Translations under genes and position numbers: made by a program
Notes under the pieces: model-generated
The model's database searches: none
Told to the model about the DNA's origin: nothing
Seen by the model: only the letters and a program-made list of their open reading frames with translations
Shown here: positions 27,962-41,476 of the stretch, piece after piece
Layout of the letters: each line of letters opens with the position of its first letter
Position numbering within the stretch: position 1 is the first letter of the stretch
Source: an uncultured Clostridia bacterium
Lineage (GTDB): Bacteria > Bacillota > Clostridia > Oscillospirales > CAG-272
NCBI GenBank assembly: GCA_944381075.1
Contig: CALWJT010000016.1
Location: 4,155-68,154, forward strand
Length of the DNA: 64,000 nucleotides
Reading direction: 5' to 3'

Positions 27962-28883
27962 TTATACAGAGTGATGATGGAAATAATAGTTCTGCATGGC
28001 TTCGTAAATATCCTCTTCACGCCATAAACATGGCTTTGCACATCTCTCAATTCGCTCCCGCTTACAACTCCCTACACAAATAGGCAAACATTTACACCGC
28101 TTACAGTCTTCAAAGTTTTCAAATTCAAATACGCTTCTTTTCCACAGATATCTTTGAAAATCCTGATATGGTTTTCCAAGACCGGAAGAACTCAGCTTGA
28201 TATTTTCAAAACCGTCTTCCGAAAGTATTCCGCCCCACAATACATTGTCACAGTCAAGCACGATACATTTCTTTGATATTCCGTATGTAATCAGGTATTA
28301 TTTATATATTTCCAAACTGATTTTTTTCAGATAACGATTGACTGTACGGATAATTCCATCTGTACTTGTTTTTGATGCTATATTCGTTCGATATTCCGAC
28401 GGATGCAATCAGGCGTTTGGTATCGATAAACGTGATTTCGGAGTCAAACTCTTCTCGTATTTGAACGTTGATTTTGTCCACCAATCCATTCGAAGCATAC
28501 TGCGAACCGAACACAAAGGAAGAATTCCATTGCCAATCTTCATATCCGAACCATAATACAGATGCCTTGGAATTTTTTCTGATTGCCTCCCAGATGCGAT
28601 GTGCTTTTTCAAGTTCAAAGTCAACAATCGCGCTTACCTCTGTCAACGAATCCTCATCCAACACCCCCGGGTATGTGTCCTCAAAACTCAAAAGAATTAC
28701 GACAAAATCGATCTCGGCAAATCATTGTAACGACTTAGTCGAACAATATTCATCGTAATTCACAGTGTCTATTCTAATCCGAATTCCGTTTTGCTCAAAT
28801 ATCCGATTGGCAGACGGTACCAAAAACGGTTCGACAGACAGATTGGAGACAAAGGACAGCTCAAATAAAGATTTTTCCTGCAT
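27962..28883 (-). pseudogene. FkbH-like HAD-IIIC protein remnant fused to a radical SAM SPASM C-terminus
   Basis: ATG 28883 with GAGGTG RBS, in-frame TGA 28722-24, frameshift near 28325; KCIVLDCDNVLWGGILSEDG...YQDFQ (FkbH motif I) runs directly into CKRCKCLPICVGSC...C. Confidence 0.75.
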
Positions 28884-28897
28884 AGATTCACCTCATC

Positions 28898-29176
28898 TTA
28901 TGGATCCCTGGATTCAAGAACCGATTTATTGCTTTCGCTGACAGCAAGTTGGAGCACCTCCAACATCTTGTTAACCGAATTCATTTCGGTCAATAGCAAT
29001 TTTTCATCAGGTATCTCACATTCAAATGCTTCTTCAAGCGACACAACAATTTGAATGAATTTGATAGAATCCACTCCCAACTCCAGCAGATCGTTATCAC
29101 ATTGATCTACGGTCACTTCCATGTCTTGAACGGAATTAACGATTTCCAGTATTTTTTCTTTTGTTATTTCTTTCAT
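28898..29176 (-). CDS. Acyl carrier protein
   Basis: ELGVDSIKFIQIVVSLEEAF phosphopantetheine motif; start overlaps upstream stop. Confidence 0.88.
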   Translation of the reverse strand: MKEITKEKILEIVNSVQDMEVTVDQCDNDLLELGVDSIKFIQIVVSLEEAFECEIPDEKLLLTEMNSVNKMLEVLQLAVSESNKSVLESRDP

Positions 29177-30087
29177 TCGCTTATCCCCAGAAAGACTCGC
29201 TTATTGATTGCGATCTTTTCCTTATCCCGTTCTGTTAGGGTCTCTTTGATCAGTTCGTAAAGATGATCCGAATCAAGCCTTGTTTTGAAGTCACACTTCC
29301 ATTCACGCCGTTCCTTTTCGCATAAACCGTAGCTATTCAGAAGTGCCTCTCCCACCGGTGTTCTGAATGCTTCTATGTACTGCTTTAATACATCGTCATC
29401 AAATACCTGACCTGTATAGTATAAGACATAAAAAACATAGGGGATAATCTCATATTCGACACTCATGGTATACAGTTTGTCTAAAGATATCGCGTCAAGA
29501 TTATTTTTCAGCAAGTAATATACATCCTTGAACATATCGTATCTGATGCTTTTCCTGGTTGCGAGCAGAAAAAGAGAGTTTATGTCTTTATAGTGGTGAA
29601 GAATAAGATGAATCATTGCTTTTATCGGGGGCAACGTTTTCACTTTGACACCGTAAATCTCCATTTCTATTGTGTCTGACAGGAATTCCTCAATGTCTAT
29701 TCGCTTGCCTTCATATTCTCCCCAAAAGATGTCATAATTTAAGTCTATATAAATAGCATTTCCGTTTATATTTTTTATATATGGTAATAATTGGTGTGAA
29801 TTGGTAAGTACAAAAATTCTATCTTCTCTGCTATAATTAGAATATATATTCATAAAACCATTTGCTTGTAAGACCTCTTCAAGTTTTTTTAGAGTTTTTC
29901 GCGAAACTAATATATCAATATCATTGTACAAACGCATGCCGTTTTTCTGATATGCTTCAATCGATAATGGCTCTCCTTTTACTATAGCAAATAAGTATTG
30001 TTGTGTATCAATGAGTAATTGTGATAACTGTTTGTAAAGAAACTTGCCTTCAATTAGATTCTTCATCCGAATAGCTTCTTGAATCAT
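29173..30087 (-). CDS. Nucleotidyltransferase family protein (NTP_transf_5-like)
   Basis: IVKG...Y...R..NDIDILV, HLILH, FKDVY. Confidence 0.8.
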   Translation of the reverse strand: MIQEAIRMKNLIEGKFLYKQLSQLLIDTQQYLFAIVKGEPLSIEAYQKNGMRLYNDIDILVSRKTLKKLEEVLQANGFMNIYSNYSREDRIFVLTNSHQLLPYIKNINGNAIYIDLNYDIFWGEYEGKRIDIEEFLSDTIEMEIYGVKVKTLPPIKAMIHLILHHYKDINSLFLLATRKSIRYDMFKDVYYLLKNNLDAISLDKLYTMSVEYEIIPYVFYVLYYTGQVFDDDVLKQYIEAFRTPVGEALLNSYGLCEKERREWKCDFKTRLDSDHLYELIKETLTERDKEKIAINKRVFLGISE

Positions 30088-30090
30088 GAT

Positions 30091-31017
30091 TTATACTACC
30101 TCGTTTAAAATATAATAATAAAATTTTTCAGAGCATTGATGAATGCAAAATAGATCATCACAAATATCCAAATATTTAAACGGAATGTTTTGAATAATAT
30201 AAATAAATAACGAGGAATTCAGTATGTTTTTAACATGTTCAGGCAAAAGGTAGCTAATTCCAACGACATTATTCAACAGTAAACTTTTCTTTTGTAATTC
30301 ATTGTCTATATTCTTTACTTCAATCCCGATTTTATTTCTAACTCTCCGTAAAAAAAATATGCATTTTAAATTGAATATTCCAGAAATATTTCCAAACCCC
30401 AAGTTAAGGCATCGGCTTTCTATAAATTTTTTCCCTTGTAAACTTTCTTTTGCAGTAACAAATATATTATCTTCATTTGAAAGGCTTTTAAATGTACTGA
30501 AGTTCATTTTTAATGGCATACTATTAGAAAAACATGAAATAATATTATTAGTCCTTGTTAAGTATAGTGTATCGTCTGAAAAAACATTTGTAAATTTTGT
30601 CAAATGTGAAACAAAAGTGGTTTTTCCAACGCCCTTATCCGCGCAAAATGCTATAATTTTTTTATTACACTCAATACTGCTTGCATGAAGCAGGATATCT
30701 TTACAATTATGTGCCAAAATAGAAAAAGGCAAATTATAGAGTGTGGATTCAAGTTCATTTTTATTTTTATAATATGCCTTAATCCTATTGTTTTCCACAT
30801 CAATAACATATGAAGTAAGTGGCGATTCAATAATATAATCCTTATTATTTTTCGTGCAATAAATTTTTTCATTGTCGAATGTTTTTTCATTATGGCAAGA
30901 TAAATCTATGATACAATCTGACATAAAAAAGTTTTCATTGCATTTAGGAAGAAAACTAAGTGGTATATTAGATTTTAAAATAAATTTATAACAATTATAA
31001 ACATACTGTTCATTCAT
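30091..31017 (-). CDS. HPr-kinase-like P-loop protein (candidate peptide kinase)
   Basis: LLHASSI...FCADKGVGKTT...FSDD. Confidence 0.75.
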   Translation of the reverse strand: MNEQYVYNCYKFILKSNIPLSFLPKCNENFFMSDCIIDLSCHNEKTFDNEKIYCTKNNKDYIIESPLTSYVIDVENNRIKAYYKNKNELESTLYNLPFSILAHNCKDILLHASSIECNKKIIAFCADKGVGKTTFVSHLTKFTNVFSDDTLYLTRTNNIISCFSNSMPLKMNFSTFKSLSNEDNIFVTAKESLQGKKFIESRCLNLGFGNISGIFNLKCIFFLRRVRNKIGIEVKNIDNELQKKSLLLNNVVGISYLLPEHVKNILNSSLFIYIIQNIPFKYLDICDDLFCIHQCSEKFYYYILNEVV

Positions 31018-32830
31018 ATTCTTTAATCACCTTATTAATCTCATAGGCGTGCGCCTGCTTTTCAAACATATCACGGTAATAACTGTTCGGATCGGAACAT
31101 AATTGCTCATGTGTTCCAGATTCAATAATTTTTCCGTTATCAATCATTATAATTTTATCAGAGCAAACCGTCGTTGTTAGTCTGTGCGAAACAAATAAAG
31201 CAATCTGATCAGATGTCATTTGCATGATTTTTTCATTAAGCTTAAACTCTGCAAACGGGTCAAGAGAACTATTTGCCTCATCTAAAACAATAACTGACGA
31301 ATTTCGAATATAAGCCCTTGACAAAGATAGTTTTTGTAACTCGCCACCAGAGAAATTGACCCCGTTTTCATCAAATTCCCGCCCGATATTTGCATCTATT
31401 CCCCCATCAATACCTTTAATCTTATGAGATAGTCCGCTGAACTCCAATGATGCCTGGATATCTTTTTCATTATAAACTTCTCCCATTGATATATTCTCTC
31501 GAATGGAAAAAGCGAAGATATTGTAATCTTGCATGACTGTTGCAAAACATTTCCTTAAATTAACAATATTATAGTTTTTAATATCAGCGTCGTTTATCAA
31601 TATCTCCCCATCGGTTACATCGTACAGTCTTAATAATAGCTTGATAATAGTTGATTTCCCGGCACCGTTTCTTCCAACTATCGCTACCTTTTCACCAGAT
31701 GTTATACGAAATGATATATTGTCCAGAATCAGTTCATCGTGATGCGGATATTTAAAAAAAACATTTTTGAACTCTATGGAAATAATCTTTTCAATACTTT
31801 TTTTATCTTCAATATCGTTTTCAATTGATGGCTGATAATCCAAGATTCCGCGTAAATGTGACACATAATATTCGCTTTCAAAATTTAATCGGTCAAAAGA
31901 ATTGATAATACCAGCCAATTCACCTGAGATTTGATAACACGCTGAAAACAACACGGTGAAACTGCCGAGTGTAATATCTCCGGTAATCGTTTTAAATGCA
32001 ATATAACCTAATAAAACAGGTGCTATCATTAAAGTATTTATTACACTGATAATGTATTTAAACCTCCAATATTTCGCTTTTGTTTCTTTGTATATTTTAT
32101 ACTTTTCAACAAATGTTTCATTAAGTTTATTAATTAAGAACTGCCCTAAGTTATAGAGCCTTACATCTTTGGCGAAATCTTTGAAATGAGAAACCTTTTT
32201 TATGTATTCTGATTTTCTGTTAATTGTTTCCTCTGCTTCATACTGCTCCTGGGAATATCGGCTTGATCTGTTTTGATCAAAAAATGATACAACAACCATA
32301 ACCGCAATGATAATAAGTATAAACGGATCTAATGTAATTATAATTGACGATAGCAGAATTACATTGAATACATTTTTGGCAATAGAAAAAAGTATATTTA
32401 AAAAGTCCAAGGCTTTTGTATCAGCATACCTTATCGCTTTCGTATAATTATCATAAAATTTGAAATTTTCATAGCACTCCAAATCTTGTTTCATGGCTTT
32501 TTTTATAAATACATTCTGCAAATTATTTCGCAACTTATATTCTCTGCTTGATATAATAACATTGCTTATAATGGTAGAAGCGGAATACAAAATGAAAGAA
32601 ATTACCTGCAGAATAATGATATGCCTGATAACAATATTAAAAGAGTTTTTCGCCGTAATAGAATCTATGATCCACTTAATATATAAAGTTCCGACTGCAG
32701 TTTGAAGCGTTGCAATAATTAACGAAATGAATTTTAACGGTATTATAAATTTATCGCCATTCCAAATATATTTTAACATTAACTTAATATCAGCGATTGT
32801 GATTTTTAGGGGATGCTTTTTATTTGTCAT
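31010..32830 (-). CDS. ABC exporter, fused permease/ATPase (no C39 peptidase domain)
   Basis: TM helices, GRNGAGKST, FSGGELQK, VLDEA, SHRL; GGAG RBS before MTNKK at 32830. Confidence 0.93.
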   Translation of the reverse strand: MTNKKHPLKITIADIKLMLKYIWNGDKFIIPLKFISLIIATLQTAVGTLYIKWIIDSITAKNSFNIVIRHIIILQVISFILYSASTIISNVIISSREYKLRNNLQNVFIKKAMKQDLECYENFKFYDNYTKAIRYADTKALDFLNILFSIAKNVFNVILLSSIIITLDPFILIIIAVMVVVSFFDQNRSSRYSQEQYEAEETINRKSEYIKKVSHFKDFAKDVRLYNLGQFLINKLNETFVEKYKIYKETKAKYWRFKYIISVINTLMIAPVLLGYIAFKTITGDITLGSFTVLFSACYQISGELAGIINSFDRLNFESEYYVSHLRGILDYQPSIENDIEDKKSIEKIISIEFKNVFFKYPHHDELILDNISFRITSGEKVAIVGRNGAGKSTIIKLLLRLYDVTDGEILINDADIKNYNIVNLRKCFATVMQDYNIFAFSIRENISMGEVYNEKDIQASLEFSGLSHKIKGIDGGIDANIGREFDENGVNFSGGELQKLSLSRAYIRNSSVIVLDEANSSLDPFAEFKLNEKIMQMTSDQIALFVSHRLTTTVCSDKIIMIDNGKIIESGTHEQLCSDPNSYYRDMFEKQAHAYEINKVIKEYE

Positions 32831-32927
32831 TTTAATCTCCATTCTGTCGCTTTGAGTCAGCACAAATAGTGATGAAAAAGTGCCGGATAGCGGCGATTTT
32901 GTAACAAAATTGTTGTAAAATACATAT

Positions 32928-33320
32928 GCAGGAGTATATATCAAACCTGCGTTAGTGCAAGTCGCTCACGTAGCCGTAAAAGCCACAGACAATTCTTACT
33001 ACCGCTTAAAGTATGATCAAATCTCCAAACGCAGAGGGAAGAAACATGACATTATTGCCATTGCACGGAATGATCCTCACTGCTGTTTTCCCAATTATAG
33101 CAAGGACTAAGATGTGGTCAAACCTTGCTTTTGATGAACCACCGTTGCCTGCTTAATAGCTTTGGACAAAAGCTTTTCTCAAGAAGTTTACCTTAAAAAG
33201 ATCGGTGGGATTCCAGACCTAACCCGTGGCTATATTCGCTTTCGTTAACTCTGCAAAGAATTGTTTTGTGCAGGGCTTTCTTGTTGCACTTTCTCGGCGG
33301 CAAGTGATTCGTATCTTTCA
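32928..33320 (+). mobile_element. IS110-family transposase remnant, internally rearranged
   Basis: Plus strand AGVYIKPALVQVAH...KRRGKK...IIAIAR/MILTAVF; the following C-terminal piece (VWNPTDL...KAIKQA...QGL) lies on the minus strand at ~33105-33222. Confidence 0.7.
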
Positions 33321-33322
33321 CG

Positions 33323-34654
33323 CTATTTTCTTCGAATGGATTTAATCATGTAATTATACTTATTCATTAGGACTTCTGATGTAACAATAAAATCATTTGG
33401 GCAACGATTATTACCATTTATAATTCTCGATTTAGGACAATTCTGAGCAAAACAAACAGGCAAATTGATGCATTCCTTGCATTTGTTTTCAAGTTCTATT
33501 TTTCCATTTGGCAAAACAAAACGGCTCCATTTATATAAATTAAATTCTATTCTTTCATTCTCAATTGTTCCTACAACATTAAATTTATCAAGTTCTTCAT
33601 CTTCTTCGTTGCATTTTCTTAATTTTCCATCGCTCCCTAATGTAAAGTGATATGGCAACCCAGCATAGCAAACTCGTTTGAATGGATTATAATAATTATA
33701 ATTTGTTAAGGGTTCTATCCCTTTTTTAATCGCCTCTTCCATTAACATAACTGTCGTGTACGGTTCTATAGAATAATCAATAACATCAAGAGCTTCATCG
33801 TTCTCGCCTCCCCATTTACCAATAGTATGAAAAAACACGGTAAACCTACTATCAAGATTATCTTTTATTGCATCAAACAGTTCATTTATACCAGCAAATG
33901 TTTCGTTATTATAGTTCACTCTGATAGAAATATGAAAATCAAACTCTTTAAAAGAATTAAAAGTTTTTAAATTATCAAATATTATATTCCATGTAGGTCG
34001 TCCATCTGATAATGGTCTGTTGCTATTATGAGTTTCTTTATCTCCATCTATTGTAATTTGGAAAAAATCAAATTGATTGTTCAATAGATATTCAATCTGA
34101 TCTTTAGAAAATAAAGATCCATTTGTTGTTGCGCCATAATGATATCTAACATTTTTACCGTAAAAAAAACTATTCAAATTATCAGTAACTTTCTTTATTA
34201 TATCAAATGAAATGAATGGCTCTCCACCAAACCACTCTATATAAAAATCTTTTAACCCATGATCATAATAATAATTTTTTATTGCTTTTATAAATTTATC
34301 TATATTTTCATCAGAAATTACTTTTTTGCCATGTTCTTGATAACAATATTTACATCTAAAGTTGCATATATTGTTGGGCATTATTATAAAAGACAAATTT
34401 GTAGGATCAAACATTTGTTTATAATATGATGCCATCACTTCTTGCACTTCATCAATATCATCAGGAACACAAAACGCTTTTTTAAATATGTCATTTTCTA
34501 TATTATCACAGTCTTTTTTCTTTAAAGATAAAAGATCTCCTTTAAGTTTTTCTTCTTCATTATTGACAAAAATTTGTGCTCCATTTTTCATATTATATAA
34601 TAATACGCCATCTTCTACTTCATGTATTACTGTATATTTTGATATTTTTAACAT
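33323..34654 (-). CDS. Radical SAM/SPASM peptide maturase
   Basis: CNFRCKYC, WFGGEP, TTNG, ITIDG; SPASM CYAG...C...CKECINLPVCFAQNC...C; N-terminal RRE-like segment; AAGGAG RBS. Confidence 0.93.
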   Translation of the reverse strand: MLKISKYTVIHEVEDGVLLYNMKNGAQIFVNNEEEKLKGDLLSLKKKDCDNIENDIFKKAFCVPDDIDEVQEVMASYYKQMFDPTNLSFIIMPNNICNFRCKYCYQEHGKKVISDENIDKFIKAIKNYYYDHGLKDFYIEWFGGEPFISFDIIKKVTDNLNSFFYGKNVRYHYGATTNGSLFSKDQIEYLLNNQFDFFQITIDGDKETHNSNRPLSDGRPTWNIIFDNLKTFNSFKEFDFHISIRVNYNNETFAGINELFDAIKDNLDSRFTVFFHTIGKWGGENDEALDVIDYSIEPYTTVMLMEEAIKKGIEPLTNYNYYNPFKRVCYAGLPYHFTLGSDGKLRKCNEEDEELDKFNVVGTIENERIEFNLYKWSRFVLPNGKIELENKCKECINLPVCFAQNCPKSRIINGNNRCPNDFIVTSEVLMNKYNYMIKSIRRK

Positions 34655-34735
34655 ATATATTTTCTCCTTAAATTAAATAATACCATTCAGATGGTCGGGA
34701 CTAAAACTTAAACTTATTCCGACATTAGTTGTGGT

Positions 34736-34775
34736 ACAACATAGAACTTTAGTTTTGAATAAGCTCTATGTTGTA
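34736..34775 (-). terminator. Stem-loop between precursor and maturase genes
   Basis: tacaacatagaactt...aagctctatgttgta inverted repeat just 3' of the precursor stop. Confidence 0.6.
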
Positions 34776-34783
34776 CCCGCATT

Positions 34784-34906
34784 TTAACTACCGCAGGAAC
34801 CTTGACATCCATTGCATTTGCCCTTGCAACCACAATTAGTGTCACATCCTGGAGGGCAATTGCCATTCGATCCATTTAATGAATCGATATCAGATAAGAA
34901 ATACAT
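34784..34906 (-). CDS. Cys-rich RiPP precursor peptide (40 aa, not in ORF track)
   Basis: AAAGGAG RBS; MYFLSDIDSLNGSNGNCPPGCDTNCGCKGKCNGCQGSCGS*; directly upstream of the rSAM gene. Confidence 0.85.
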   Translation of the reverse strand: MYFLSDIDSLNGSNGNCPPGCDTNCGCKGKCNGCQGSCGS

Positions 34907-35589
34907 GTTTTTTCTCCTTTCACTATAAAATTATGTTACAGCACAAAACTATTATCTTTATGCCAAAACATCAAATGGTCTTTGAATAATAATTCGCTTG
35001 TCTTTATATTTTCAATTCAGGTTATTTTCAAAAAAAAAAATTTTGTAAGGTTTAATAAACAAAATGAACTTCAAAAACTGCGTGATAGCCATAATAAATT
35101 ATTCTGTCCGATTTCCAGGTGAAGAAGTTGATACTTTACTCCGAAGTATTGATTTCTGGAAAATTCAACACTTGTTTTTCGTCGCTTGTAAACTCAACTT
35201 TTAAATCTTTTTGTAATTTATTATATCTTTATTGCTAAACGTTACATAATATAGGCAAGCTAATCATAGCCTCATGGCATGATACGATATTAAAAATGCG
35301 ATAAAAGAATATCCTATCTTAGGACGCAATGCGCTTTTAAAACAGTATTATAATTATGGCAAACAAAAATTACTTGGAGAAGGAGAATATCCGTCACACA
35401 AATTATACAGAAAATCAATTAAATGATTGTGATAAGCACCATGTGAATATACTACATTTCAAAACCTCACTGATGTTACCAGAAGCCGTTTCCTCTATTT
35501 TTTGTTTATATGATAACTATTTAAGGATAGCGGAGCTCCGAGCGAGACAGACGCAGAATCGTGCATCAACGGGTCACGTAGCAAAGCTG

Positions 35590-35790
35590 CATTCAAGTTC
35601 GGTGGTGAAAAGTTCTTCCGGTATCCAAGCCACTTACATGGCGGTCCGTTGATGATGTCCGCAAAGATCATGACCTCATCGGCAGTGTAGTCGGCGATAC
35701 GCTCTCTCTTTGGGATAAAACGATGTAGCATTCGATTGTGGCATTCAACAGTGCACTTCTCTCATGACCGGTGCGGGTGCGTACGGTGTC
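35590..35790 (-). mobile_element. IS30-family transposase C-terminal remnant
   Basis: ECHNRMLHRFIPKRERIADYTADEV...INGPPCKWLGY resembles the IS30 tail E..N..IRRFIPKG...N..PRK.LGY. Confidence 0.7.
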
Positions 35791-36100
35791 CCAGATACAC
35801 TTTTTGCCCCGAGTCCGCTTTGTATCTCTGTGCCCGACCGTGATAAAAGGCTATAGTTCCGCATTAAATCTAATTCTTAATTGTGTTGTAAGATCATCCG
35901 AGGTGTCTCGCAACCCGTAGATTGACTAGCCGTTCTTTTCGATGCCCCTCAATTTCGTGTCATTCTTCCGAGGTTGCGAGTGGGCATGGCATTCGCGATA
36001 TTCTGTGATATAATAGGCGTTGTATATAACAATCATCCCTCTGGAATTTGGAACCGTTGCAACTTTATTTTTGCAATTGCGCTACATGTTGGAGATTTAA

Positions 36101-36149
36101 AAACCCGCACAAGTGCGCCATAACTCAGTGCATGCACTTGTGCGGGTTT
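36101..36149. repeat. Perfect 16-bp inverted repeat
   Basis: aaacccgcacaagtgc (36101-16) / gcacttgtgcgggttt (36134-49). Confidence 0.8.
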
Positions 36150-36416
36150 AGAAGTCTCGGGTGGGAAATGCTGATTGCACTTGCGCTTGGGAGACATTAG
36201 GTTTTTATGAGCTTTTACTAAATTAAGTGTAACATGAGCGTCATATTTTGTCAATACAAATATTTCCATTACATGCAAAATCGTGGACATACACAAAAAA
36301 TAATGAAAATCCATGCTGTTATACTTGGTTTTTTGTGCAGTATTGATATAATTTATACAAATTGCACAAAAGAAGACGATTAGGATGTTGAATGGTAACC
36401 ACTGATCCATTTTCTC

Positions 36417-37050
36417 TTATGTTGCCGTTACCACCATCGTTGTGCTTGTTTTCATCCTGAACATACACGCATCTGTTTTTCCATCTTTCCGTTCTGTAAG
36501 CGTGCCGGTCAAATGTTTCAGATACATTCTGTTCAGCGCCGAAGTACCGAGGAAAGCCTTCACATTTGTCACAGGAAGGACACACCATTCGCTGTCGGTT
36601 GGTTTGTTAGCGATATAGTATTCGAGTAGCGTCCTTGTTACATTCAGCGGAACAGACTTTGGCGTGACAGCGGCAAGCCTCTGTTCTTGTTCTTCCGTTA
36701 GGGTAATCGATTCTTGCCGCAATGCACCCAGCTCCAGCGCATCTGCAATCACATCATCAAAGCGAAGAATCAAATCCCCCTTTGTTCCTTCCGAAAAGAT
36801 CGGGATTTGGTATTGTATGACCTTCTTACGCCAAGCATCCTCCAGTTTTTCGATGTTGCCGACAATTTTTTGTGTGGTCTTGCCTACCTTGTCGCGGCTG
36901 GCGTTAATAAAATCTACGATGCCGTGCAAGTGCCGGATAGCTGTTCTCGTCTACAAGCTCCGGAAACTCATCGTGAAGTTCACGGAAATCTGTTTTGAAC
37001 TGCCACTCCGCCTTCGGGGTGGCATCCTTTTTGTCCGGAATACTGCAGTC
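36417..37050 (-). pseudogene. Frameshifted hypothetical gene downstream of the RNAP-like gene
   Basis: Coding-like frames IPDKKDATPKAEWQFKTDFRELHDEFPEL / ...YYIANKPTDSEWCVLPV; 5' end lost. Confidence 0.5.
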
Positions 37051-38700
37051 TTAATGCGTGTCGCATTCATCTCGGTGAACAGGGCATATAGACTCTCGGA
37101 GTCGTATGTGTCCTCTTGGTCACGTATCATGAGAATGCGGTCAATATCTCTTCTCTTGGAATTGCTCGGTGTCGGATGACTGTTTGAGCGAATACGACGC
37201 AGACAGCGGTCGTAGGTGTCGATCAACTCTTTTATCGGCTCAAAGAGAGCTGCATCGAGGTTGTCCTGCCAATTCGGAGATTTAGCAAAGGTGAAAAGTC
37301 CGGAGGACGGCGCGGGCTTTGGAACTTTCCTCGGCGTGTTCTTTTTGAGCATATAAGCATAGTACGGCAGCTTTTCCACATTCGCCGTTACGCTGTCCCA
37401 ATCGGTACTATCAATGTATTTTTTCATCTTTTCCGCAAAGGTATCTTCATACCACGCAGGGCGAGCTTCGGATTCTTTGGGGCGTGATCCACATAGTAAT
37501 CGAACTGAAACCATTCGTCGTTGAGAAGGCGGTAATAGATTTCTTCGGTCGTTTTGGTAAACCATGATCCGGTATCGCTGTCATTTAGCTCGTCCTCTTT
37601 GTCAATATGATCTTTCATCCAGTCAGACGGTTGATCAACTGGTCTGAATTGATCGGTACTCAGAGCAAGCGTGGATAAAAACTGATAGTTCAGATCCGTG
37701 TACTGCTCATTTTCAGTGTTGTTGACACCTGTAATATACAAAGCGTGGCGATAGTTCCGGCAACGGTCAAGATATTCCGAAAAAGTCAGCCCGTTTTCGG
37801 TCATCCAACCACATCCCTTGAATTGGCTCTTGGTCAGAATCATATGAATACGCTCGACTGGGTGTGAAATGCCCACATATCTGTAATCGTTGTGACTGTT
37901 GCTTCTCTGCAGAGTCCGTGAAAGTCCACCTCATGCACCATGCCCTTGATATATGGCATACAGATCTGGAAGGATGTATGAATGTGTTGGCCGCAGTAGA
38001 ATCTGTCAATTGTGGCGGCAAGTTCGGGAGATACAATTCCCTCACCGTCAAACAGCGTGACCTTGATATCGCTCTTTTTCTCGACTCTCTCATAGTTGCG
38101 AACACCACCGACACCTGTGGTGTCGGTGGTGACATCGATGTCGGGATATACGGCTGTCGGGTTGTCAATAATGACAATAGCATCCTTTCCCCATAACATA
38201 TCCGTCTCAATGCGTGTACCGCTTGAAAATAATAAACCGTTGTAGGCATAGAGCTTGGATAGCTGACAATCGCCAATGGTCATACCGACCATCATACGGC
38301 GGCGAAGTTCGTCATACACATCCGCACGAATAAAAGAGAGCTTTGCGTTTCGGTTCATACTGCCCGATCGCTCAAAGACAAGATAACGCATAGAGCCGTG
38401 ACCAAAGTCCAATGTGATCCCCTCGGGGCGAAACATGGACTCGGTCTTTTTCTGCATAAGTGCGGTCTTGGGGTTATCCGAATCCCGATCAAATATCCCC
38501 TTGAAGTCAGGATAGAGCATGACATCACAGAGGTCTGAAATGACGGTGTCCTCGGTCGGCTGTTTGTAGTCGTTACCTCGGATGACGCACATGGACCTGA
38601 AAGAAAATGGCGTTGTCCTCCTGCCATGTGTCGCTGTTTCCCATCAGCACGCTTTTTGTCTGTGCCTCGGTGAGGTCAAAGAAATAAATATCGTTACCCA
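37050..38700 (-). pseudogene. YonO/RdRP-like single-subunit RNA polymerase, fragmented
   Basis: Ordered motifs FERSGSMNR, SKLYAYNGL, FDGEGIVSP, SFQICMPYIKGM, ILTKSQFKG, LNYQFLSTL; frameshifts near 38595, 37870 and 37460; catalytic DxDGD region absent. Confidence 0.75.
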
Positions 38701-38985
38701 TCGGCTTTGCATAGGAGAGCATCGCCGCTAAGACCGGCATGGGAGACGGCGAATACTTGCGCGTCTCGGCGCTCGGAAAGACAATCTACTAGGTCGAGGA
38801 ACTCAAACCAATCCTTCATGAGCTGAAAGGCATCGGCAGAAATCTCAATCAGCTCACCATGCTGTGCCATCAGGGCGTGATCCACATGGTAAACCTGACC
38901 GCAACATCCGATGCCATCAGGCGATGCTATCAAGCAATAAACAAGCTCTGTGCCAGCACGGACGGCGTCATAGGAAGCGGTGATG
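38700..38985 (+). pseudogene. mobC: MobC relaxosome accessory protein remnant
   Basis: YLRVSALGKTIY*VEELKPILHELKGIGRNLNQLTMLCHQG; GxNxNQ motif; in-frame TAG and no 5' end. Confidence 0.7.
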
Positions 38986-39846
38986 GCGACCGTTATTTTT
39001 ATCAAGGAAAGCAAACAACCCCCCAGTGCTATGCGGGGTTGCATCAACTATTGCGTGCAGGAAAAGAAGACCGTAGATTCTAACGGTCGGCAGTATGTGG
39101 GCGGTGTTAACTGTTTAGGTAAGTACGCATATGAAGAATTCATGGCGACAAAAAACCTTTATGGCAAGGCATCGGATATCTATTTTTATCAATATGTGCA
39201 ATCCTTTATGCAGGGTGAGATCCAGTCTTATGACGAAGCTCACCGCATAGGTATGGAGTTTGCCGAGCAGTTCTTTCCGGGTTATGAGGTGCTGGTAGCA
39301 ACGCACCCGGATGCTTACGATGATAGCGGCGTTCAGCGCGTGCATAACCATTTTATTGTCAATTCGGTCAGCTTTGAGGATGGCAGAAAGATTCACTTCA
39401 CGCCTAACACTTTACAGGAGCTAAGAAAAATCAGTGATTCCATCTGCGCGGAACATGGATTTTCTGTCCTCTCTCCCTCCGAGCGAACTTACGGCAAAGC
39501 CATCGGCACACGGGAATACCGGACAACCATGAAGGGGAACGGCCGGAAATTCCAGCTCATCAATGACATTGACACCGCCATGACACAGGCGGGAGACAAA
39601 CGCGAGTTCTGTGATACCCTCGCCTCTGCCGGTTATACCGTCACCTGGACGGATACAAGAAAATATATCGCATTCACCTGCCCGAACGGAATGAAAGTTC
39701 GGGACAACAAATTACACGATAACAAATACAGAAAGGATATTTTAGAGTATGAATTATCAATCAGACAACAGCTTACAGAACAACACCCTGCGTCAAGCCC
39801 AATGGAGCGGCTAAAGCGGCATCCAAGACTGCGGTCAGGACGATAG
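38980..39846 (+). CDS. MOBP-type relaxase/mobilisation nuclease (probably 3'-truncated)
   Basis: N-terminal Tyr in CINYCV, QYVQSF, VLVATH...VHNHFIVNSVSFEDG 3H motif. Confidence 0.85.
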   Translation: MMATVIFIKESKQPPSAMRGCINYCVQEKKTVDSNGRQYVGGVNCLGKYAYEEFMATKNLYGKASDIYFYQYVQSFMQGEIQSYDEAHRIGMEFAEQFFPGYEVLVATHPDAYDDSGVQRVHNHFIVNSVSFEDGRKIHFTPNTLQELRKISDSICAEHGFSVLSPSERTYGKAIGTREYRTTMKGNGRKFQLINDIDTAMTQAGDKREFCDTLASAGYTVTWTDTRKYIAFTCPNGMKVRDNKLHDNKYRKDILEYELSIRQQLTEQHPASSPMERLKRHPRLRSGR

Positions 39847-39849
39847 AGG

Positions 39850-40296
39850 AAACGCTGTATCAGCCGATCGTCTATGCGATTCCGAAGGAGGACTGGAACG
39901 CCTTCAGGGAGTGGGCGAAACAAGCGGTAACATTTCAACCGACTGTATCAGCAGATAGCGGCGCTGACGACCAAGAAGGAGTCAGAGGCTTACACGGACG
40001 AGATGTGGAACAAGATACAGAACTGGTCGAGGAAGTTTACAGAACAAGTGAAACCGTCCTCGGAGAGCATCGTGCCGAGGGTGAACAAATTGCTCTACGA
40101 CAACAAGGAACTTTTGCAACAGGATGGGAAAGCGGGAGACGAGTTTATTTCGAATCTCAATGTGCGAGAGCAGACGCGGATCGACAAGTACGAAGAATTG
40201 CTTATGAAGACGAAACGGTGGATCATCACGGCGATCGCATCGACCATCGGCAGTTCGGCGATTTTGAGCACGGTGATCTGTCTCTTGATGAGATAA
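39850..40296 (+). pseudogene. Fragment of a hypothetical protein with a C-terminal membrane helix
   Basis: Frameshifted coding-like sequence ending KRWIITAIASTIGSSAILSTVICLLMR. Confidence 0.4.
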
Positions 40297-40299
40297 GAG

Positions 40300-41109
40300 C
40301 GTTCTTCCGGGATGAACAATCGGAAGATGACCGTCTTTGCAACGACCCGCCCGAAACGGACGGATGGACAAAGCAGAAATATTACGACCTACGGGAGCAG
40401 GCAGAGCTTGGCAACAAATATGCCGAGTACCGCCTCTCCCGCCTTTTGTTTGACGAGAACAGCCCTTATTACGACAGCTATGACGGAGCCTGCTACTTGG
40501 AATCGTCCGCCAAAAAGGGGTACTATGGCGCAATATCGGCTCGGCAAGATGATCTATCAGGGCGACTATTACCGCCAAATGCCCGAAAACGCGGCGTATT
40601 GGTTGATCTTATCCGCAAAACAGAACAATCCCTACGCAGAGATGCTTCTCGGTCAGCTGTATATTCTCGGGGATTTTCTGCGACTTGACAAAAAGGCGGG
40701 CTTTGGTCTTCTGTATGATGCCATCAGTGACGCCAACGCCGCTTATACCCTCGGAAAATATTATGCTGAGGGTAAGCACTTGAAGAAAAACATTCCGAAA
40801 GCGATTGCTTTACTGGAGCAAGCAGCACAGATGGGCAATCCGTTTGCAGAATACCGACTTGCCAAGATCTATCCCTTTGAATCAGACTATTTCGATTGGC
40901 ATGAACACGGCAGCACACAAGGGCAACGAAAACGCCTACCGGGCATTGCAGAATATGAACCGCAATCCTGTTTCTCTATCACGACCCGGATAGCAGACCT
41001 TATCGGCGATCTCTCTGCCACGTTCGACAAAAGACCGGCGGTGAAAGATTGCACGACCATGCCGCAACGCAAAGAAAGGAAGAAATATGAGTATGAGCAA
41101 TGTATGTAG
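40300..41109 (+). pseudogene. Sel1-repeat protein, frameshifted
   Basis: AELGNKYAEYRL, AQYRLGKMIYQG, SAKQNNPYAEMLLG, AAQMGNPFAEYRLA spread over two frames. Confidence 0.7.
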
Positions 41110-41145
41110 CCGAGCAAATTTATCACATTTTTATGAAAGGGGGCG

Positions 41146-41370
41146 ATGCTTATCAGCCGGACGAAAGAAACGATGCAAGGTATGAAAGAACGATTCAGCG
41201 GCATGCCGACAAGCAGTCATGTAGTAGTTATTGACGGTATCCGCTATACCGTTGTCAGTCATTACACAGGAAGTAAGAATGTAGACCATGTAATCCGCAA
41301 AATAGCCGAAAAACAGGCACTGGCGGATATGAGCAGTCAAAACGGAAAAGAAGAAAAGATTTCGGCATAA
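41146..41370 (+). CDS. TnpW-like small transposon protein
   Basis: VIDGIRYTVVSHYTGSKNVDHVIRKIAE; sits directly upstream of the serine recombinase. Confidence 0.5.
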   Translation: MLISRTKETMQGMKERFSGMPTSSHVVVIDGIRYTVVSHYTGSKNVDHVIRKIAEKQALADMSSQNGKEEKISA

Positions 41371-41476
41371 ATTTGCCGAGTTAACAATTAGCAGCTTGCT
41401 TTGTCATGTGCTTTGTGGTATCATAAAGGCACATACAAATCAGGCTGCTTTGACATGACAGAAAGGATTTTATTGG

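What the first reader, a model, noticed from the sequence alone, without database searches (positions are those of the whole stretch)
34690..34906. Hidden 7-Cys precursor and its downstream stem-loops
Seen: a 16-aa leader MYFLSDIDSLNGSNGN and core CPPGCDTNCGCKGKCNGCQGSCGS (C-x3-C-x3-C-x-C-x3-C-x2-C-x3-C), below the ORF-track cutoff. Hairpins at 34736-75 and ~34694-723 separate it from the maturase. Known: such stem-loops raise precursor over enzyme mRNA in RiPP operons, and Cys-every-fourth precursors pair with rSAM enzymes. Inference: a heavily crosslinked or metal-binding product.
Basis: partly seen in the sequence, partly recalled or inferred. Interest (0 to 1): 0.7.

Follow-up and report, generated by a model that had tools for sequence, protein, structure and literature searches.

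The report
Cysteine-rich peptide precursor with serine-tail kinase
A tiny unannotated gene encodes a seven-cysteine peptide that a neighbouring radical-SAM enzyme most likely cross-links, and a kinase and nucleotidyltransferase pair known from lasso peptides probably decorates its invariant last serine.

Summary
The 40-aa ORF (34906..34784, minus strand) is real. It has a GGAG ribosome site, and its Cys content is the highest of 668 ORFs in the window.

A Cys-rich ORF ending in Ser lies directly upstream of the radical SAM/SPASM gene in 12 of 12 related loci (enzyme 39-99% identical). The family is rare: a profile search of 1.84 billion proteins gave 6 hits.

The first stem-loop (34733-34777, -24.6 kcal/mol) is real. 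Unrelated hairpins occupy the same position in 5 of 8 lineages. The second stem-loop is not beyond chance.

- an MsbA-like exporter
- an HprK-fold kinase
- a PF14907 nucleotidyltransferase
- an ACP
- an FkbH gene, broken here and intact in 94%-identical relatives

The kinase's more distant relatives are lasso-peptide kinases, whose precursors also end in Ser (8 of 8 loci). They are known to phosphorylate that serine.

Best reading: an exported, thioether-bridged peptide with a phosphorylated, further decorated C-terminal serine, carried on a 30% GC island beside mobile-element genes. The chemistry is inferred and expression is not shown.

Verdict: a new variant of a known kind.

The parts
34986..35015 (-). 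Promoter-like site, TTGAAA-18 nt-TATTAT
   Evidence: 10 of 12 consensus matches. Consensus match only; the scan found 50 such sites in the region against 42.6 expected.
34914..34917 (-). Ribosome-binding site GGAG, 7 nt before the precursor ATG
   Evidence: sequence. Conserved in the 94%-identical relative.
34784..34906 (-). Precursor peptide gene: 40 aa, 7 Cys, C-terminal Ser, stop codon included
   Evidence: Homologues lie upstream of the orthologous rSAM gene in 12 of 12 loci. Alignment A3 has invariant M1, C21, C25, C27, C31 and C38. Single copy in the genome.
34733..34777 (-). 17-bp stem-loop after the precursor stop codon; no U-tract
   Evidence: -24.6 kcal/mol, z = -7.9. Sequence-unrelated hairpins sit at the same position in 5 of 8 lineages. 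A G-U to A-U change in the relative L008 keeps the pairing.
34694..34723 (-). Weak second stem-loop; probably not functional
   Evidence: -6.7 kcal/mol, 12 of 200 shuffles fold as well. Disrupted in L008.
33323..34654 (-). Radical SAM/SPASM peptide maturase, 443 aa, with an N-terminal domain like that of CteB
   Evidence: TIGR04463 157.6 bits and CefB 150.2 bits, both below cutoff. PF04055; invariant C97, C101, C104 and seven C-terminal Cys. CteB 5why Z 25.8 over model residues 5-434. Its own AAGGAG site is at 34669-34664.
32840..33322 (.). Higher-GC spacer between the rSAM and ABC genes, absent from most orthologous loci; holds a promoter-like site at 33121-33094
   Evidence: In L004, L006 and L011 the ABC gene follows within 13 nt.
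31010..32944 (-). MsbA-like ABC exporter without a peptidase domain. The true start is probably the Met at about 32839.
   Evidence: PF00005; MsbA TIGR02203 at 241 bits, below cutoff. Follows the rSAM gene in all orthologous loci with downstream sequence.
30091..31017 (-). HprK/P-fold kinase-like protein, 308 aa
   Evidence: invariant H111, G129-x-G131-K132-x-T134 and D148-D149. Foldseek top hits are L. casei HprK/P 1kkl, E 9e-6; its profile finds the lasso-cluster kinases.
29173..30087 (-). PF14907 (NTP_transf_5) nucleotidyltransferase, 304 aa
   Evidence: 73.2 bits against a cutoff of 31.2.
28898..29176 (-). Acyl carrier protein, 92 aa
   Evidence: PF00550 at 42.1 bits against a cutoff of 20.8. 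The sequence contains a GVDS stretch.
28145..28892 (-). FkbH-like gene remnant, frameshifted and cut at residue 265 of 542
   Evidence: two tblastn pieces in different frames. Homology to the intact gene of L009 ends at window 28146. The intact gene scores 240.8 bits on TIGR01686.

Best explanation
The 40-codon ORF is the precursor of a ribosomal peptide natural product.

Shown:
- The ORF is translatable and conserved in place beside orthologues of the downstream radical SAM/SPASM enzyme.
- That enzyme has the three-cluster cysteine pattern and the overall fold of the thioether-forming maturase CteB.
- An MsbA-like exporter, an HprK-fold kinase and a PF14907 nucleotidyltransferase follow in one direction.
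- The kinase family's other members are lasso-peptide kinases.
- All precursors beside such kinases end in Ser.

Inferred:
1. The enzyme binds the short hydrophobic N-terminal leader (M-[YF]-F-[LV]-S).
2. It converts several of the 7 Cys, especially the invariant C-x3-C-x-C-x3-C block, into intramolecular thioether bridges (sacti- or ranthipeptide-type).
3. The kinase phosphorylates the invariant C-terminal Ser40.
4. The nucleotidyltransferase adds a further group to that phosphate. In intact relatives this may be a glycerate-derived unit supplied by FkbH and ACP. In this strain FkbH is a pseudogene.
5. The ABC pump exports the product.
6. The 17-bp stem-loop after the stop codon acts on the transcript as a partial terminator or 3'-end stabiliser, so that precursor mRNA exceeds enzyme mRNA.

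The whole cluster is a 30% GC island in a roughly 50% GC genome, next to relaxase and serine-recombinase genes, so it was acquired horizontally.

My odds for each step:
- genuine precursor of this enzyme: about 0.9
- thioether chemistry: about 0.5
- phosphorylation of Ser40: about 0.6
- regulatory role of the hairpin: about 0.5
For: Precursor:
- Searches give the sequence, the ribosome site and the Cys content.
- 12 of 12 loci with an enzyme of 39-99% identity carry a Cys-rich ORF ending in Ser directly upstream.
- None of the 34 distant loci examined (enzyme 32% identical or less) has a member of this family.
- Alignment A3 of 9 distinct precursors has invariant C21, C25, C27, C31 and C38.
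- A natural allele in run X1 changes 6 residues. All 7 Cys are kept, and the only change in a Cys codon is synonymous.

Enzyme:
- Invariant CX3CX2C and 7 SPASM-region Cys.
- Best solved relatives by sequence are CteB 5wgg (E 3e-13) and SkfB.
- Best solved relatives by structure are CteB (Z 25.8, model residues 5-434), anSME (Z 25.2) and TigE (Z 24.1).
- Complex prediction of enzyme plus precursor gave weak support. Median ipSAE was 0.39 (runs 0.63, 0.39, 0.21) and the best of 3 controls was 0.07. Partner pLDDT was 34-38, and the runs agreed in at least 30% of contacts. In calibration the mark was reached by 116 of 157 solved complexes and 2 of 215 mismatched pairs. Only 18 of those 157, and both mismatches that passed, scored 0.60 or under.

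Kinase:
- Invariant His, P-loop and DD motif.
- HprK/P fold.
- Its profile finds 10 further genomes among 400 of the phylum.
- The five of those loci annotated with Pfam are lasso clusters (Asn_synthase, Hpr_kinase_C, PqqD, Transglut_core3, ABC), two of them with NTP_transf_5. Three more have the same gene sizes and order.
- Precursors end in Ser in all 8 of these lasso-type loci.
- Lasso HprK homologues phosphorylate the C-terminal Ser. PsmN adds hexose to the phosphate. A DD-to-AA mutant of PsmK is inactive (PMC6993621 and PMC8498205, passages read).
- The kinase is intact or present as a remnant in 5 of 6 lineages with downstream sequence.
- L107, a distant cluster (enzyme 30% identical) with kinase, PF14907 and GT2 genes, has a 6-Cys ORF ending in GCS.

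Hairpin:
-.
- A 194-nt contig of metatranscriptome run X3 (0 differences) spans 34672-34865, across the hairpin. This is a weak hint only, because DNA can be present in such libraries.

Island:
- GC profile and flanking genes.
- No orthologue in 40 related genomes searched, 15 of them of the same genus.
Against: - No curated family recognises the peptide. The enzyme is far below every curated cutoff (157.6 against 525 for its best family). No reaction can therefore be transferred by orthology.
- The structural neighbours include non-thioether enzymes: anSME, TigE and ChlB.
- The cluster has no protease, and the ABC pump has no peptidase domain. The leader/core boundary is unknown.
- The C-terminal Ser is also present where no intact kinase is encoded nearby. 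This holds for the paralogous Cys-every-fifth cluster of the same genome and for the decayed loci L006 and L007.
- One related representative, P0129, reads 34 residues past the usual end.
- LppK, the other characterised kinase of this type, phosphorylates Ser3 of its core peptide and not a terminal Ser (PMC13381572, passages).
- The window's nucleotidyltransferase is not detectably similar pairwise to a lasso-cluster one (E 1.2). They share only the Pfam family.
- The kinase does not reach any Pfam model at E 1 or below.
- The hairpin lacks a U-tract. L011 has no hairpin, and L004 and L014 have no clear one.
- Expression is not shown. Only low-depth contigs from RNA libraries of one study lie on the region.
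- In this strain FkbH is broken and a foreign spacer splits the operon, so the cluster may be decaying.
Confidence: 0.6

Rival explanations
1. The peptide is a metal-binding (metallothionein- or metallophore-like) product. The thiols stay free or are altered in some way other than thioether bridging, and the radical SAM enzyme performs another reaction such as epimerisation, C-C coupling or oxidation of Cys.
For: 17.5% Cys in C-x-C and C-x3-C spacing. The enzyme is below every curated cutoff. Its structural neighbours include anSME (Cys/Ser oxidation), TigE (cyclopropyl formation) and the epimerase EpeE.
Against: The best sequence and structure matches that cover the whole length, N-terminal domain included, are the thioether synthase CteB and SkfB. 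The nearest NCBIfam families are all Cys-rich-peptide maturases. No metal transport or metal sensing gene lies in the cluster.
Confidence: 0.2
2. The kinase-like protein and the nucleotidyltransferase do not act on the C-terminal Ser. They modify another residue (as LppK does with Ser3 of its core) or a non-peptide substrate, and the terminal Ser is conserved for another reason, for instance recognition by the radical SAM enzyme or the exporter.
For: LppK phosphorylates an internal Ser (PMC13381572, passages). The terminal Ser also occurs in the kinase-less paralogous cluster of this genome. The peptide has four other Ser: S5, S9, S13 and S37.
Against: The C-terminal Ser is the only Ser conserved in all aligned precursors. 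All 8 lasso-type loci found with the kinase profile, and the distant rSAM cluster L107, also have precursors ending in Ser. Lasso kinases of this family are shown to act on exactly that residue.
Confidence: 0.2
3. The stem-loop has no role in setting the precursor-to-enzyme ratio. It is an ordinary, possibly inefficient, terminator remnant or a neutral palindrome.
For: No U-tract, and the terminator scan does not call it. 3 of 8 lineages lack a clear hairpin. A contig from an RNA library runs across it.
Against: Strong hairpins of unrelated sequence lie right after the precursor stop in 5 of 8 lineages, two of them with U-tracts. Pairing is kept through a G-U to A-U change. z = -7.9. The sequence is not a repeated element in the genome.
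Confidence: 0.35
4. The ORF is a chance open frame and is not translated.
For: No HMM or Pfam match. It is short. Expression is not shown.
Against: Conserved in 12 of 12 orthologous loci down to 39% enzyme identity, with invariant Cys positions. It has a ribosome site. A profile built from it finds only related peptides in 1.84 billion proteins.
Confidence: 0.02

Closest known systems
SCIFF/CteB and PapB-type ranthipeptides, and sactipeptides (radical SAM/SPASM thioether RiPPs)
   Same: A short Cys-rich precursor encoded next to an rSAM/SPASM enzyme that carries an N-terminal leader-binding domain. CteB is the best solved match by sequence (E 3e-13) and by structure (Z 25.8 over residues 5-434).
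   Different: Scores are far below the family cutoffs: SCIFF maturase 60.7 against 425, PapB 95.4 against 340. The precursor matches no SCIFF model. It has a 16-residue leader and 7 Cys in 24 residues. The extra kinase, nucleotidyltransferase, ACP and FkbH genes are, to my knowledge, not part of those systems; that statement is recalled and was not tested.
NCBIfam bioinformatic families TIGR04463 (rSAM_vs_C_rich) and CefA/CefB (Cys-every-fifth; NF038108 and NF038107)
   Same: These are the best-scoring families for the enzyme (157.6 and 150.2 bits). They follow the same logic of a Cys-repeat peptide plus an rSAM/SPASM maturase. A paralogous cluster in the same genome has true Cys-every-fifth precursors with weak CefA hits.
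   Different: Both are far below cutoff (525 and 600 bits). The window's peptide gives no CefA hit even at E 10. Its spacing is C-x3-C-x3-C-x-C-x3-C-x2-C-x3-C. I found no paper on these families.
C-terminal tailoring of lasso peptides: PadeK/PsmK HprK-like kinases and the PsmN nucleotidyltransferase (paeninodin, pseudomycoidin)
   Same: A homologous kinase with the same His, P-loop and DD motif, aligned with kinases from lasso clusters found. A PF14907 partner gene, an MsbA-like pump, and a precursor ending in Ser. The functions come from PMC6993621 and PMC8498205 (passages).
   Different: The cluster has no Asn-synthase-like cyclase, no B1 or B2 proteins and no lasso core motif. The scaffold enzyme is a radical SAM/SPASM protein. 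The nucleotidyltransferases share the family only.
Linear polyphosphorylated peptides (LPP; lppA-K-B-S-D-N of Paenibacillus alginolyticus; Nat Commun 2026;17:6633, PMC13381572)
   Same: [quoted passage not shown]
   Different: LPP clusters have a discrete RRE and an SpI-like leader peptidase. Their leader motif is YxxPxVLxHQxIxFETxxS, and phosphorylation is at Ser3 of the core. None of these is present here. LPP clusters have no radical SAM enzyme; the term does not occur in that paper.
HprK-related proteins of rSAM/SPASM cassettes named in NCBIfam (GeoRSP HprK-related kinases A and B, TIGR04352 and TIGR04355; SynChlorMet ScmC, TIGR04249)
   Same: An HprK-like protein encoded beside rSAM/SPASM peptide maturases. 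There are weak hits for the window protein and its orthologues (E 0.0036 to 2.5e-6).
   Different: Scores are 16-27 bits against cutoffs of 125-200, so these proteins are not members. There is no separate PqqD protein here. Those cassettes are, as far as I know, also uncharacterised; that is recalled.

Membership tests
Radical SAM/SPASM peptide maturase (superfamily level) | CX3CX2C radical SAM cluster motif | tested here: met
   C97, C101 and C104 are invariant in 17 orthologues. PF04055 scores 49.9 bits against a cutoff of 29.5.
Radical SAM/SPASM peptide maturase (superfamily level) | C-terminal SPASM domain with seven Cys for two auxiliary clusters | tested here: met
   Invariant C329, C348, C392, C395, C401, C406 and C418. 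Structural alignment to CteB and anSME runs through residue about 437. The canonical spacing is recalled; the last gap here is x4.
Radical SAM/SPASM peptide maturase (superfamily level) | N-terminal leader-recognition (RRE-like) domain | tested here: inconclusive
   The model aligns to CteB from residue 5 and to TigE from residue 1. Ranges give only the first and last residue. No PqqD Pfam hit. Complex prediction gave only weak support.
TIGR04463 rSAM_vs_C_rich | Whole-protein score at or above the curated cutoff of 525 bits | tested here: not met
   157.6 bits.
CefA/CefB Cys-every-fifth system | Maturase at 600 bits or more on NF038107, and precursor at 30 bits or more on NF038108 | tested here: not met
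   The maturase scores 150.2 bits. The precursor has no hit at E up to 10.
SCIFF / ranthipeptide | Maturase at or above the cutoff of TIGR03974 (425 bits) or PapB NF047865 (340 bits) | tested here: not met
   60.7 and 95.4 bits.
RiPP HprK-like kinase (PadeK/PsmK/LppK type) | HprK/P fold with a His, a P-loop and a DD metal site | tested here: met
   H111, G129-x-G131-K132-x-T134 and D148-D149 are invariant across the rSAM-type and lasso-type kinases. The Foldseek top hits are HprK/P structures (1kkl E 9e-6; 3tqf TM 0.63 by target length). The DD site was mutated in PsmK.
RiPP HprK-like kinase (PadeK/PsmK/LppK type) | Detectable homology to kinases of lasso clusters | tested here: met
   The profile of 8 orthologues hits lasso-cluster kinases at E 3.5e-13 to 5.4e-7. 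The window protein itself has no Pfam PF07475 hit at E 1 or below.
RiPP HprK-like kinase (PadeK/PsmK/LppK type) | Phosphorylates a Ser of the precursor | not testable with these tools
   Inferred from the invariant C-terminal Ser.
PF14907 NTP_transf_5 (the family that also includes nucleotidyltransferases of lasso clusters found here) | Pfam gathering score | tested here: met
   73.2 bits against 31.2. Lasso-cluster proteins in L108 and L114 score 182 and 200 bits on the same model. That PsmN itself belongs to PF14907 was not tested.
Lasso peptide cluster | Asn-synthase-like cyclase and transglutaminase-like leader peptidase | tested here: not met
   None of the 8 ORFs of the cluster hits these families.
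LPP family | SpI-like peptidase, discrete RRE and the conserved leader motif | tested here: not met
   No such genes in the cluster. The leader MYFLSDIDSLNGSNGN lacks the motif quoted.
Intrinsic (rho-independent) terminator | GC-rich stem followed by a U-tract | tested here: not met
   The stem is present but is followed by ACAACUAAUG. The scan did not call it.
FkbH glyceryl-ACP loading enzyme | Intact FkbH/HAD-IIIC domain | tested here: not met
   The window copy is frameshifted and ends at residue 265 of 542. The intact orthologue in L009 scores 240.8 bits against 146.65.

The most novel reading that the evidence does not exclude
This locus and its relatives define an undescribed RiPP class. 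A peptide multiply cross-linked at Cys by a radical SAM enzyme carries, on its invariant C-terminal serine, a phosphodiester-linked head group built by the lasso-type kinase and nucleotidyltransferase pair. In this lineage the head group would be a glycerate-derived unit delivered by FkbH and ACP. In others it would be a sugar (GT2 in L107, a CBM9-fused transferase in L005). This would be the first use of polyketide-type FkbH/ACP chemistry to decorate a ribosomal peptide.
Probability: 0.3. Interest if true: 0.75.

Novelty: new variant of a known kind. Interest (0 to 1): 0.55.

Why it matters
Cys-rich peptides modified by radical SAM enzymes are among the commonest yet least understood natural-product genes of gut Clostridia.

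This locus adds a small, well-defined precursor family of about a dozen sequences, with a fixed C-x3-C-x-C-x3-C block and an invariant last serine.

It also links that family to a serine-tail kinase and nucleotidyltransferase module. That module has so far been shown experimentally only for lasso peptides and for the linear polyphosphorylated peptides described in 2026.

If the predictions hold, tail phosphorylation is a portable tailoring module that moves between unrelated RiPP scaffolds. FkbH and ACP would then be a new way of decorating a ribosomal peptide.

The peptide is short enough (40 aa) for direct co-expression and mass spectrometry, so each prediction can be tested cheaply.

Tried and rejected
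- The peptide hits no NCBIfam or Pfam model, even at E 10.

Rfam:
- No match at E 1 or below in 33000-36000. The stem-loop is not a known RNA family.

Repeat search:
- The repeat finder (inverted, at most 20 nt between arms, length 14 or more) did not list the 34733-34777 hairpin, probably because of its G-U pair. I relied on folding and a pattern search instead.

PDB by sequence:
- The kinase-like protein and the nucleotidyltransferase gave only chance-level hits.

Genetic code 4 for locus L007 (record title 'Mollicutes'):
- It does not repair the split rSAM gene. The split is a frameshift, and it is also present in the independent assembly L015.

Expression:
- One search found 7 runs with small shares.
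- The four runs I laid are contigs. X1 is probably DNA. X2 and X3 belong to one study, are metatranscriptomes, and hold three short low-depth contigs identical to the window. X7 holds a divergent relative.
- No coverage step at about 34735 can be read from contigs. Parts without cover mean nothing.

Complex prediction:
- Weak support only.

Third paralogous rSAM locus (L003/L089):
- No candidate precursor found.

L107:
- No precursor upstream of its rSAM gene before the contig end. A candidate lies downstream instead.

Literature:
- Six searches found no paper that describes an rSAM Cys-rich RiPP with an HprK-like kinase, or FkbH in a RiPP.
- The library holds open-access papers and bioRxiv only. 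I opened no supplements, so the supplementary data of PMC13381572 could list such clusters.

Protein atlas:
- The kinase's nearest clusters are unnamed. One carries PF07475 in 18% of members, which is a lead only.
Full report
**1. The observation**

- GGAG lies 7 nt before the ATG.
- A sigma-70-like site (TTGAAA, 18 nt, TATTAT) lies at 35015-34986. Such sites are not enriched in this AT-rich region.
- At 7 Cys in 40 residues, the ORF has the highest Cys fraction of all 668 ORFs of 30 aa or more in the window; the mean is 3.1%.

The first stem-loop is real.
- Its arms are 34761-34777 and 34733-34749, giving 17 pairs with one G-U and an 11-nt loop.
- Energy is -24.6 kcal/mol, z = -7.9, and 0 of 200 shuffles fold as well.
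- It has no U-tract and the terminator scan does not call it.
- It is not a repeated element of the genome and not a known RNA family.

The second stem-loop (34694-34723) is weak.
- Energy is -6.7 kcal/mol, and 12 of 200 shuffles fold as well.
- It is broken in relatives that are 94% identical in DNA.

**2. The surroundings**

The ORF opens a run of genes all on the minus strand:

| Gene | Coordinates | Evidence |
|---|---|---|
| Radical SAM/SPASM enzyme, 443 aa | 34654..33323 | own AAGGAG site |
| MsbA-like ABC exporter, no peptidase domain | 32944..31010 | |
| 308-aa protein with a weak HprK-related hit | 31017..30091 | |
| PF14907 nucleotidyltransferase | 30087..29173 | 73.2 bits against 31.2 |
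| Acyl carrier protein | 29176..28898 | |
| Remnant of an FkbH gene | 28892..28145 | |

The block from about 27.2 to 35.5 kb has about 30% GC, in flanks of about 50%. It lies between mutY and a group of mobile-element genes: a MobA/VirD2 relaxase and a split serine recombinase. No orthologue of the enzyme was found in the 40 related genomes searched, 15 of them of the same genus. I read the cluster as horizontally acquired cargo.

**3. Is the small ORF a conserved gene?**

The enzyme has about 20 clusters of orthologues at 51-88% identity. After those there is a gap down to 34% or less.

With an alignment of 17 of them (A1) I fetched 4 loci from genomes and 80 from metagenomes.
- Of these 84 loci I examined 46.
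- All 12 with an enzyme of 39-99% identity carry a Cys-rich ORF ending in Ser directly upstream.
- The 34 distant loci that I examined (enzyme 32% identical or less) carry no member of this family. Five of them have other Cys-containing ORFs.
- 38 loci were not examined.

Nine distinct precursors align with an invariant Met, a hydrophobic N-terminus (mostly M-F-F-[LV]-S), and invariant Cys at window positions 21, 25, 27, 31 and 38, that is C-x3-C-x-C-x3-C. All end in Ser.

A profile of them was scored against 1.84 billion representative proteins and found only 6 proteins at E 0.001 or below.
- Three are new family members that end in GS.
- One, P0129, reads 34 residues past the usual end.
- So 12 of 13 distinct members end in Ser.

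Between the window and its 94%-identical relatives, the two differences in the gene fall in the leader, and the core is identical. A more divergent allele in run X1 changes six residues; all seven Cys are kept, and the only change in a Cys codon is synonymous. The gene is single-copy in the genome.

**4. The enzyme**

- CX3CX2C (C97, C101, C104) and seven C-terminal Cys are invariant.
- All NCBIfam hits are peptide maturases, and all are far below cutoff. The best are TIGR04463 (157.6 against 525) and CefB (150.2 against 600).
- The nearest solved proteins by sequence are the thioether synthase CteB (E 3e-13) and SkfB.
- An AlphaFold model (pLDDT 89) aligns best to CteB over residues 5-434 (Z 25.8). 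It aligns nearly as well to anSME (Z 25.2) and TigE (Z 24.1).
- A complex prediction of enzyme plus precursor gave weak support. Median ipSAE was 0.39 against a best control of 0.07, and partner pLDDT was 34-38.

Thioether bridging is therefore the most likely reaction, but it is inferred and not shown.

**5. The tailoring genes**

The 308-aa protein is homologous to proteins that follow the ABC gene in L005 (32% identity, E 2e-31) and in L011. Truncated remnants follow it in L006 and in L007/L015, where the rSAM gene is also frameshifted. It is thus present, intact or as a remnant, in 5 of 6 lineages with downstream sequence. L004, a 6.2-kb contig that repeats with a 3.8-kb period, lacks it.

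Eight orthologues share an invariant His, a G-x-G-K-[ST]-T loop and a D-D-T motif. The model's best Foldseek matches are HprK/P structures, followed by PEP carboxykinases.

A profile of the family was searched in 401 genomes of the phylum and matched 11.
- One, L107, is a second and distant rSAM cluster. It has an rSAM enzyme 30% identical, an ABC pump, a kinase, a PF14907 gene and a GT2 gene. A 6-Cys ORF ending in GCS lies between the rSAM and ABC genes.
- Eight of the others (L108-L115) are lasso-type loci, and L116 is an unclear locus. The five annotated with Pfam show Asn_synthase, Hpr_kinase_C, PqqD, Transglut_core3 and ABC, two of them with NTP_transf_5. The other three have the same gene sizes and order.
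- In all 8 lasso-type loci the precursor ends in Ser.
- His, the P-loop and DD stay invariant across both kinds of kinase.

What the literature shows:
- A DD-to-AA mutant of PsmK is inactive.
- The 'uncharacterised NTP transferase' PsmN adds one or two hexoses to that phosphate (PMC6993621 and PMC8498205, passages read).
- A 2026 paper extends the same kinase, NTP-transferase and MsbA-like-pump set to linear polyphosphorylated peptides. There the kinase acts on Ser3 of the core (PMC13381572, passages read).

I therefore predict phosphorylation of Ser40, with lower odds for another Ser.

The window's nucleotidyltransferase shares only the Pfam family with a lasso-cluster one (pairwise E 1.2).

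**6. ACP and FkbH**

In L008 and L009, which are 94% identical in DNA over window 35044..28146, the ACP is followed by an intact 542-aa FkbH protein. It scores 240.8 bits on TIGR01686 against a cutoff of 146.65. In the window this gene is frameshifted and ends at residue 265. Beyond that lies unrelated DNA that includes the tail of another SPASM gene.

Other lineages carry different extras. L005 has a CBM9-like domain fused to the transferase, and L107 has GT2. This variability fits a variable head group on the phosphate. FkbH enzymes are known to load a glycerate-derived unit onto an ACP; that is recalled and was not tested here. I found no paper that places FkbH in a RiPP pathway.

**7. The stem-loop**

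Sequence-unrelated hairpins follow the precursor stop codon in the window lineage and in L005, L006, L007 and L013. Those of L007 and L013 have U-tracts. L004 and L014 have no clear hairpin, and L011 (a 46-nt spacer) has none. That makes 5 of 8 lineages.

Conservation of position without conservation of sequence argues for a role at the RNA level. Such hairpins between precursor and enzyme genes are described for lantibiotic operons; that is recalled.

The only expression data are short low-depth contigs from metatranscriptome runs of one study. One of them crosses the hairpin (34672-34865, no differences). This neither shows transcription nor a coverage step.

**8. Comparison and novelty**

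In kind, this is a radical SAM/SPASM Cys-rich RiPP, which is a known kind. It is not a member of any curated family.

Its unusual feature is the serine-tail module shared with lasso peptides and LPPs, plus ACP and FkbH. Six literature searches found no description of this combination.

Notes of earlier agents of this scan report similar clusters in other phyla: rSAM plus HprK-like kinase plus nucleotidyltransferase, with precursors ending in Ser. So the association is recurrent rather than unique to this locus. NCBIfam also already names HprK-related proteins of rSAM cassettes (GeoRSP, ScmC).

I rate it a new variant of a known kind and moderately interesting.

Noticed in passing
L002 / L088 (own genome, contig C6:1-14000): A paralogous cluster. 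Two tandem Cys-every-fifth precursors (48 and 54 aa, ending in CS and CPTS) have weak CefA hits (E 0.0013 and 0.0086, below cutoff). They lie upstream of an rSAM/SPASM enzyme 38% identical to the window's. An ABC exporter, a 77-aa ORF and a BtrH_N-like protein follow, and there is no kinase. These peptides also end in Ser and might be served in trans by the window's kinase.
   Followed up: partly
L003 / L089 (own genome, contig C31): A third paralogous rSAM/SPASM gene (29% identity). It is followed by an ACP-like ORF, a transglutaminase-like protein, two ABC transporters and a DUF1611 protein. No precursor candidate was found.
   Followed up: partly
window 27962-28261 (minus strand): A chimeric 99-aa ORF. 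Its first part is the end of the truncated FkbH remnant. Its second part is the C-terminal SPASM tail of another radical SAM gene (TIGR04085 E 1.2e-5). This marks a deletion or recombination junction at about 28146.
   Followed up: partly
window 32840-33322: A spacer of about 480 nt, with higher GC, between the rSAM and ABC genes. It is shared with L008 and L009 but absent from other orthologous loci. It carries the best promoter match of the region (TTGACC, 16 nt, TG-TATAAT, 11 of 12) at 33121-33094, so the downstream genes may have their own promoter.
   Followed up: no
window 35045-35148: About 105 bp just upstream of the precursor's promoter-like site are absent from the otherwise collinear relatives L008, L009 and L010.
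   Followed up: no
window 36000-43000: Mobile-element genes beside the island: a MobA/VirD2 relaxase (38980-39846), a Sel1-repeat protein, and a serine recombinase split into two ORFs (41520-42140 and 42216-42767). Parts of this flank recur at 83-86% identity next to the cluster in L009.
   Followed up: no
L004 (6223-bp contig): The contig repeats itself with a period of 3803 bp and holds only the precursor, rSAM and ABC genes. It is either a small circular element or tandem copy, or an assembly artefact.
   Followed up: no
L006; L007 and L015: Decayed copies of the cluster. The rSAM gene is frameshifted and only an N-terminal remnant of the kinase gene is left, while the precursor ORF stays intact. 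L007 and L015 are independent assemblies with the same frameshift.
   Followed up: partly
L109:9736-11189 and L110:8843-10257: Lasso-peptide clusters that contain a second PqqD gene and a radical SAM gene of about 385 aa, between the B2 protease and the transporter. Pfam confirmed these in L109; L110 is inferred from the same gene sizes and order. This would be a lasso and radical SAM hybrid.
   Followed up: no
L113:6805-7511: Four tandem, near-identical lasso-type precursor genes, all ending in DADLYNPS, upstream of an HprK-like kinase.
   Followed up: no
L074:326-583: A distant rSAM locus (25% identity) with an 85-aa ORF containing NCGNCGNCSNC repeats and ending in SES. It may be another Cys-rich precursor family.
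   Followed up: no
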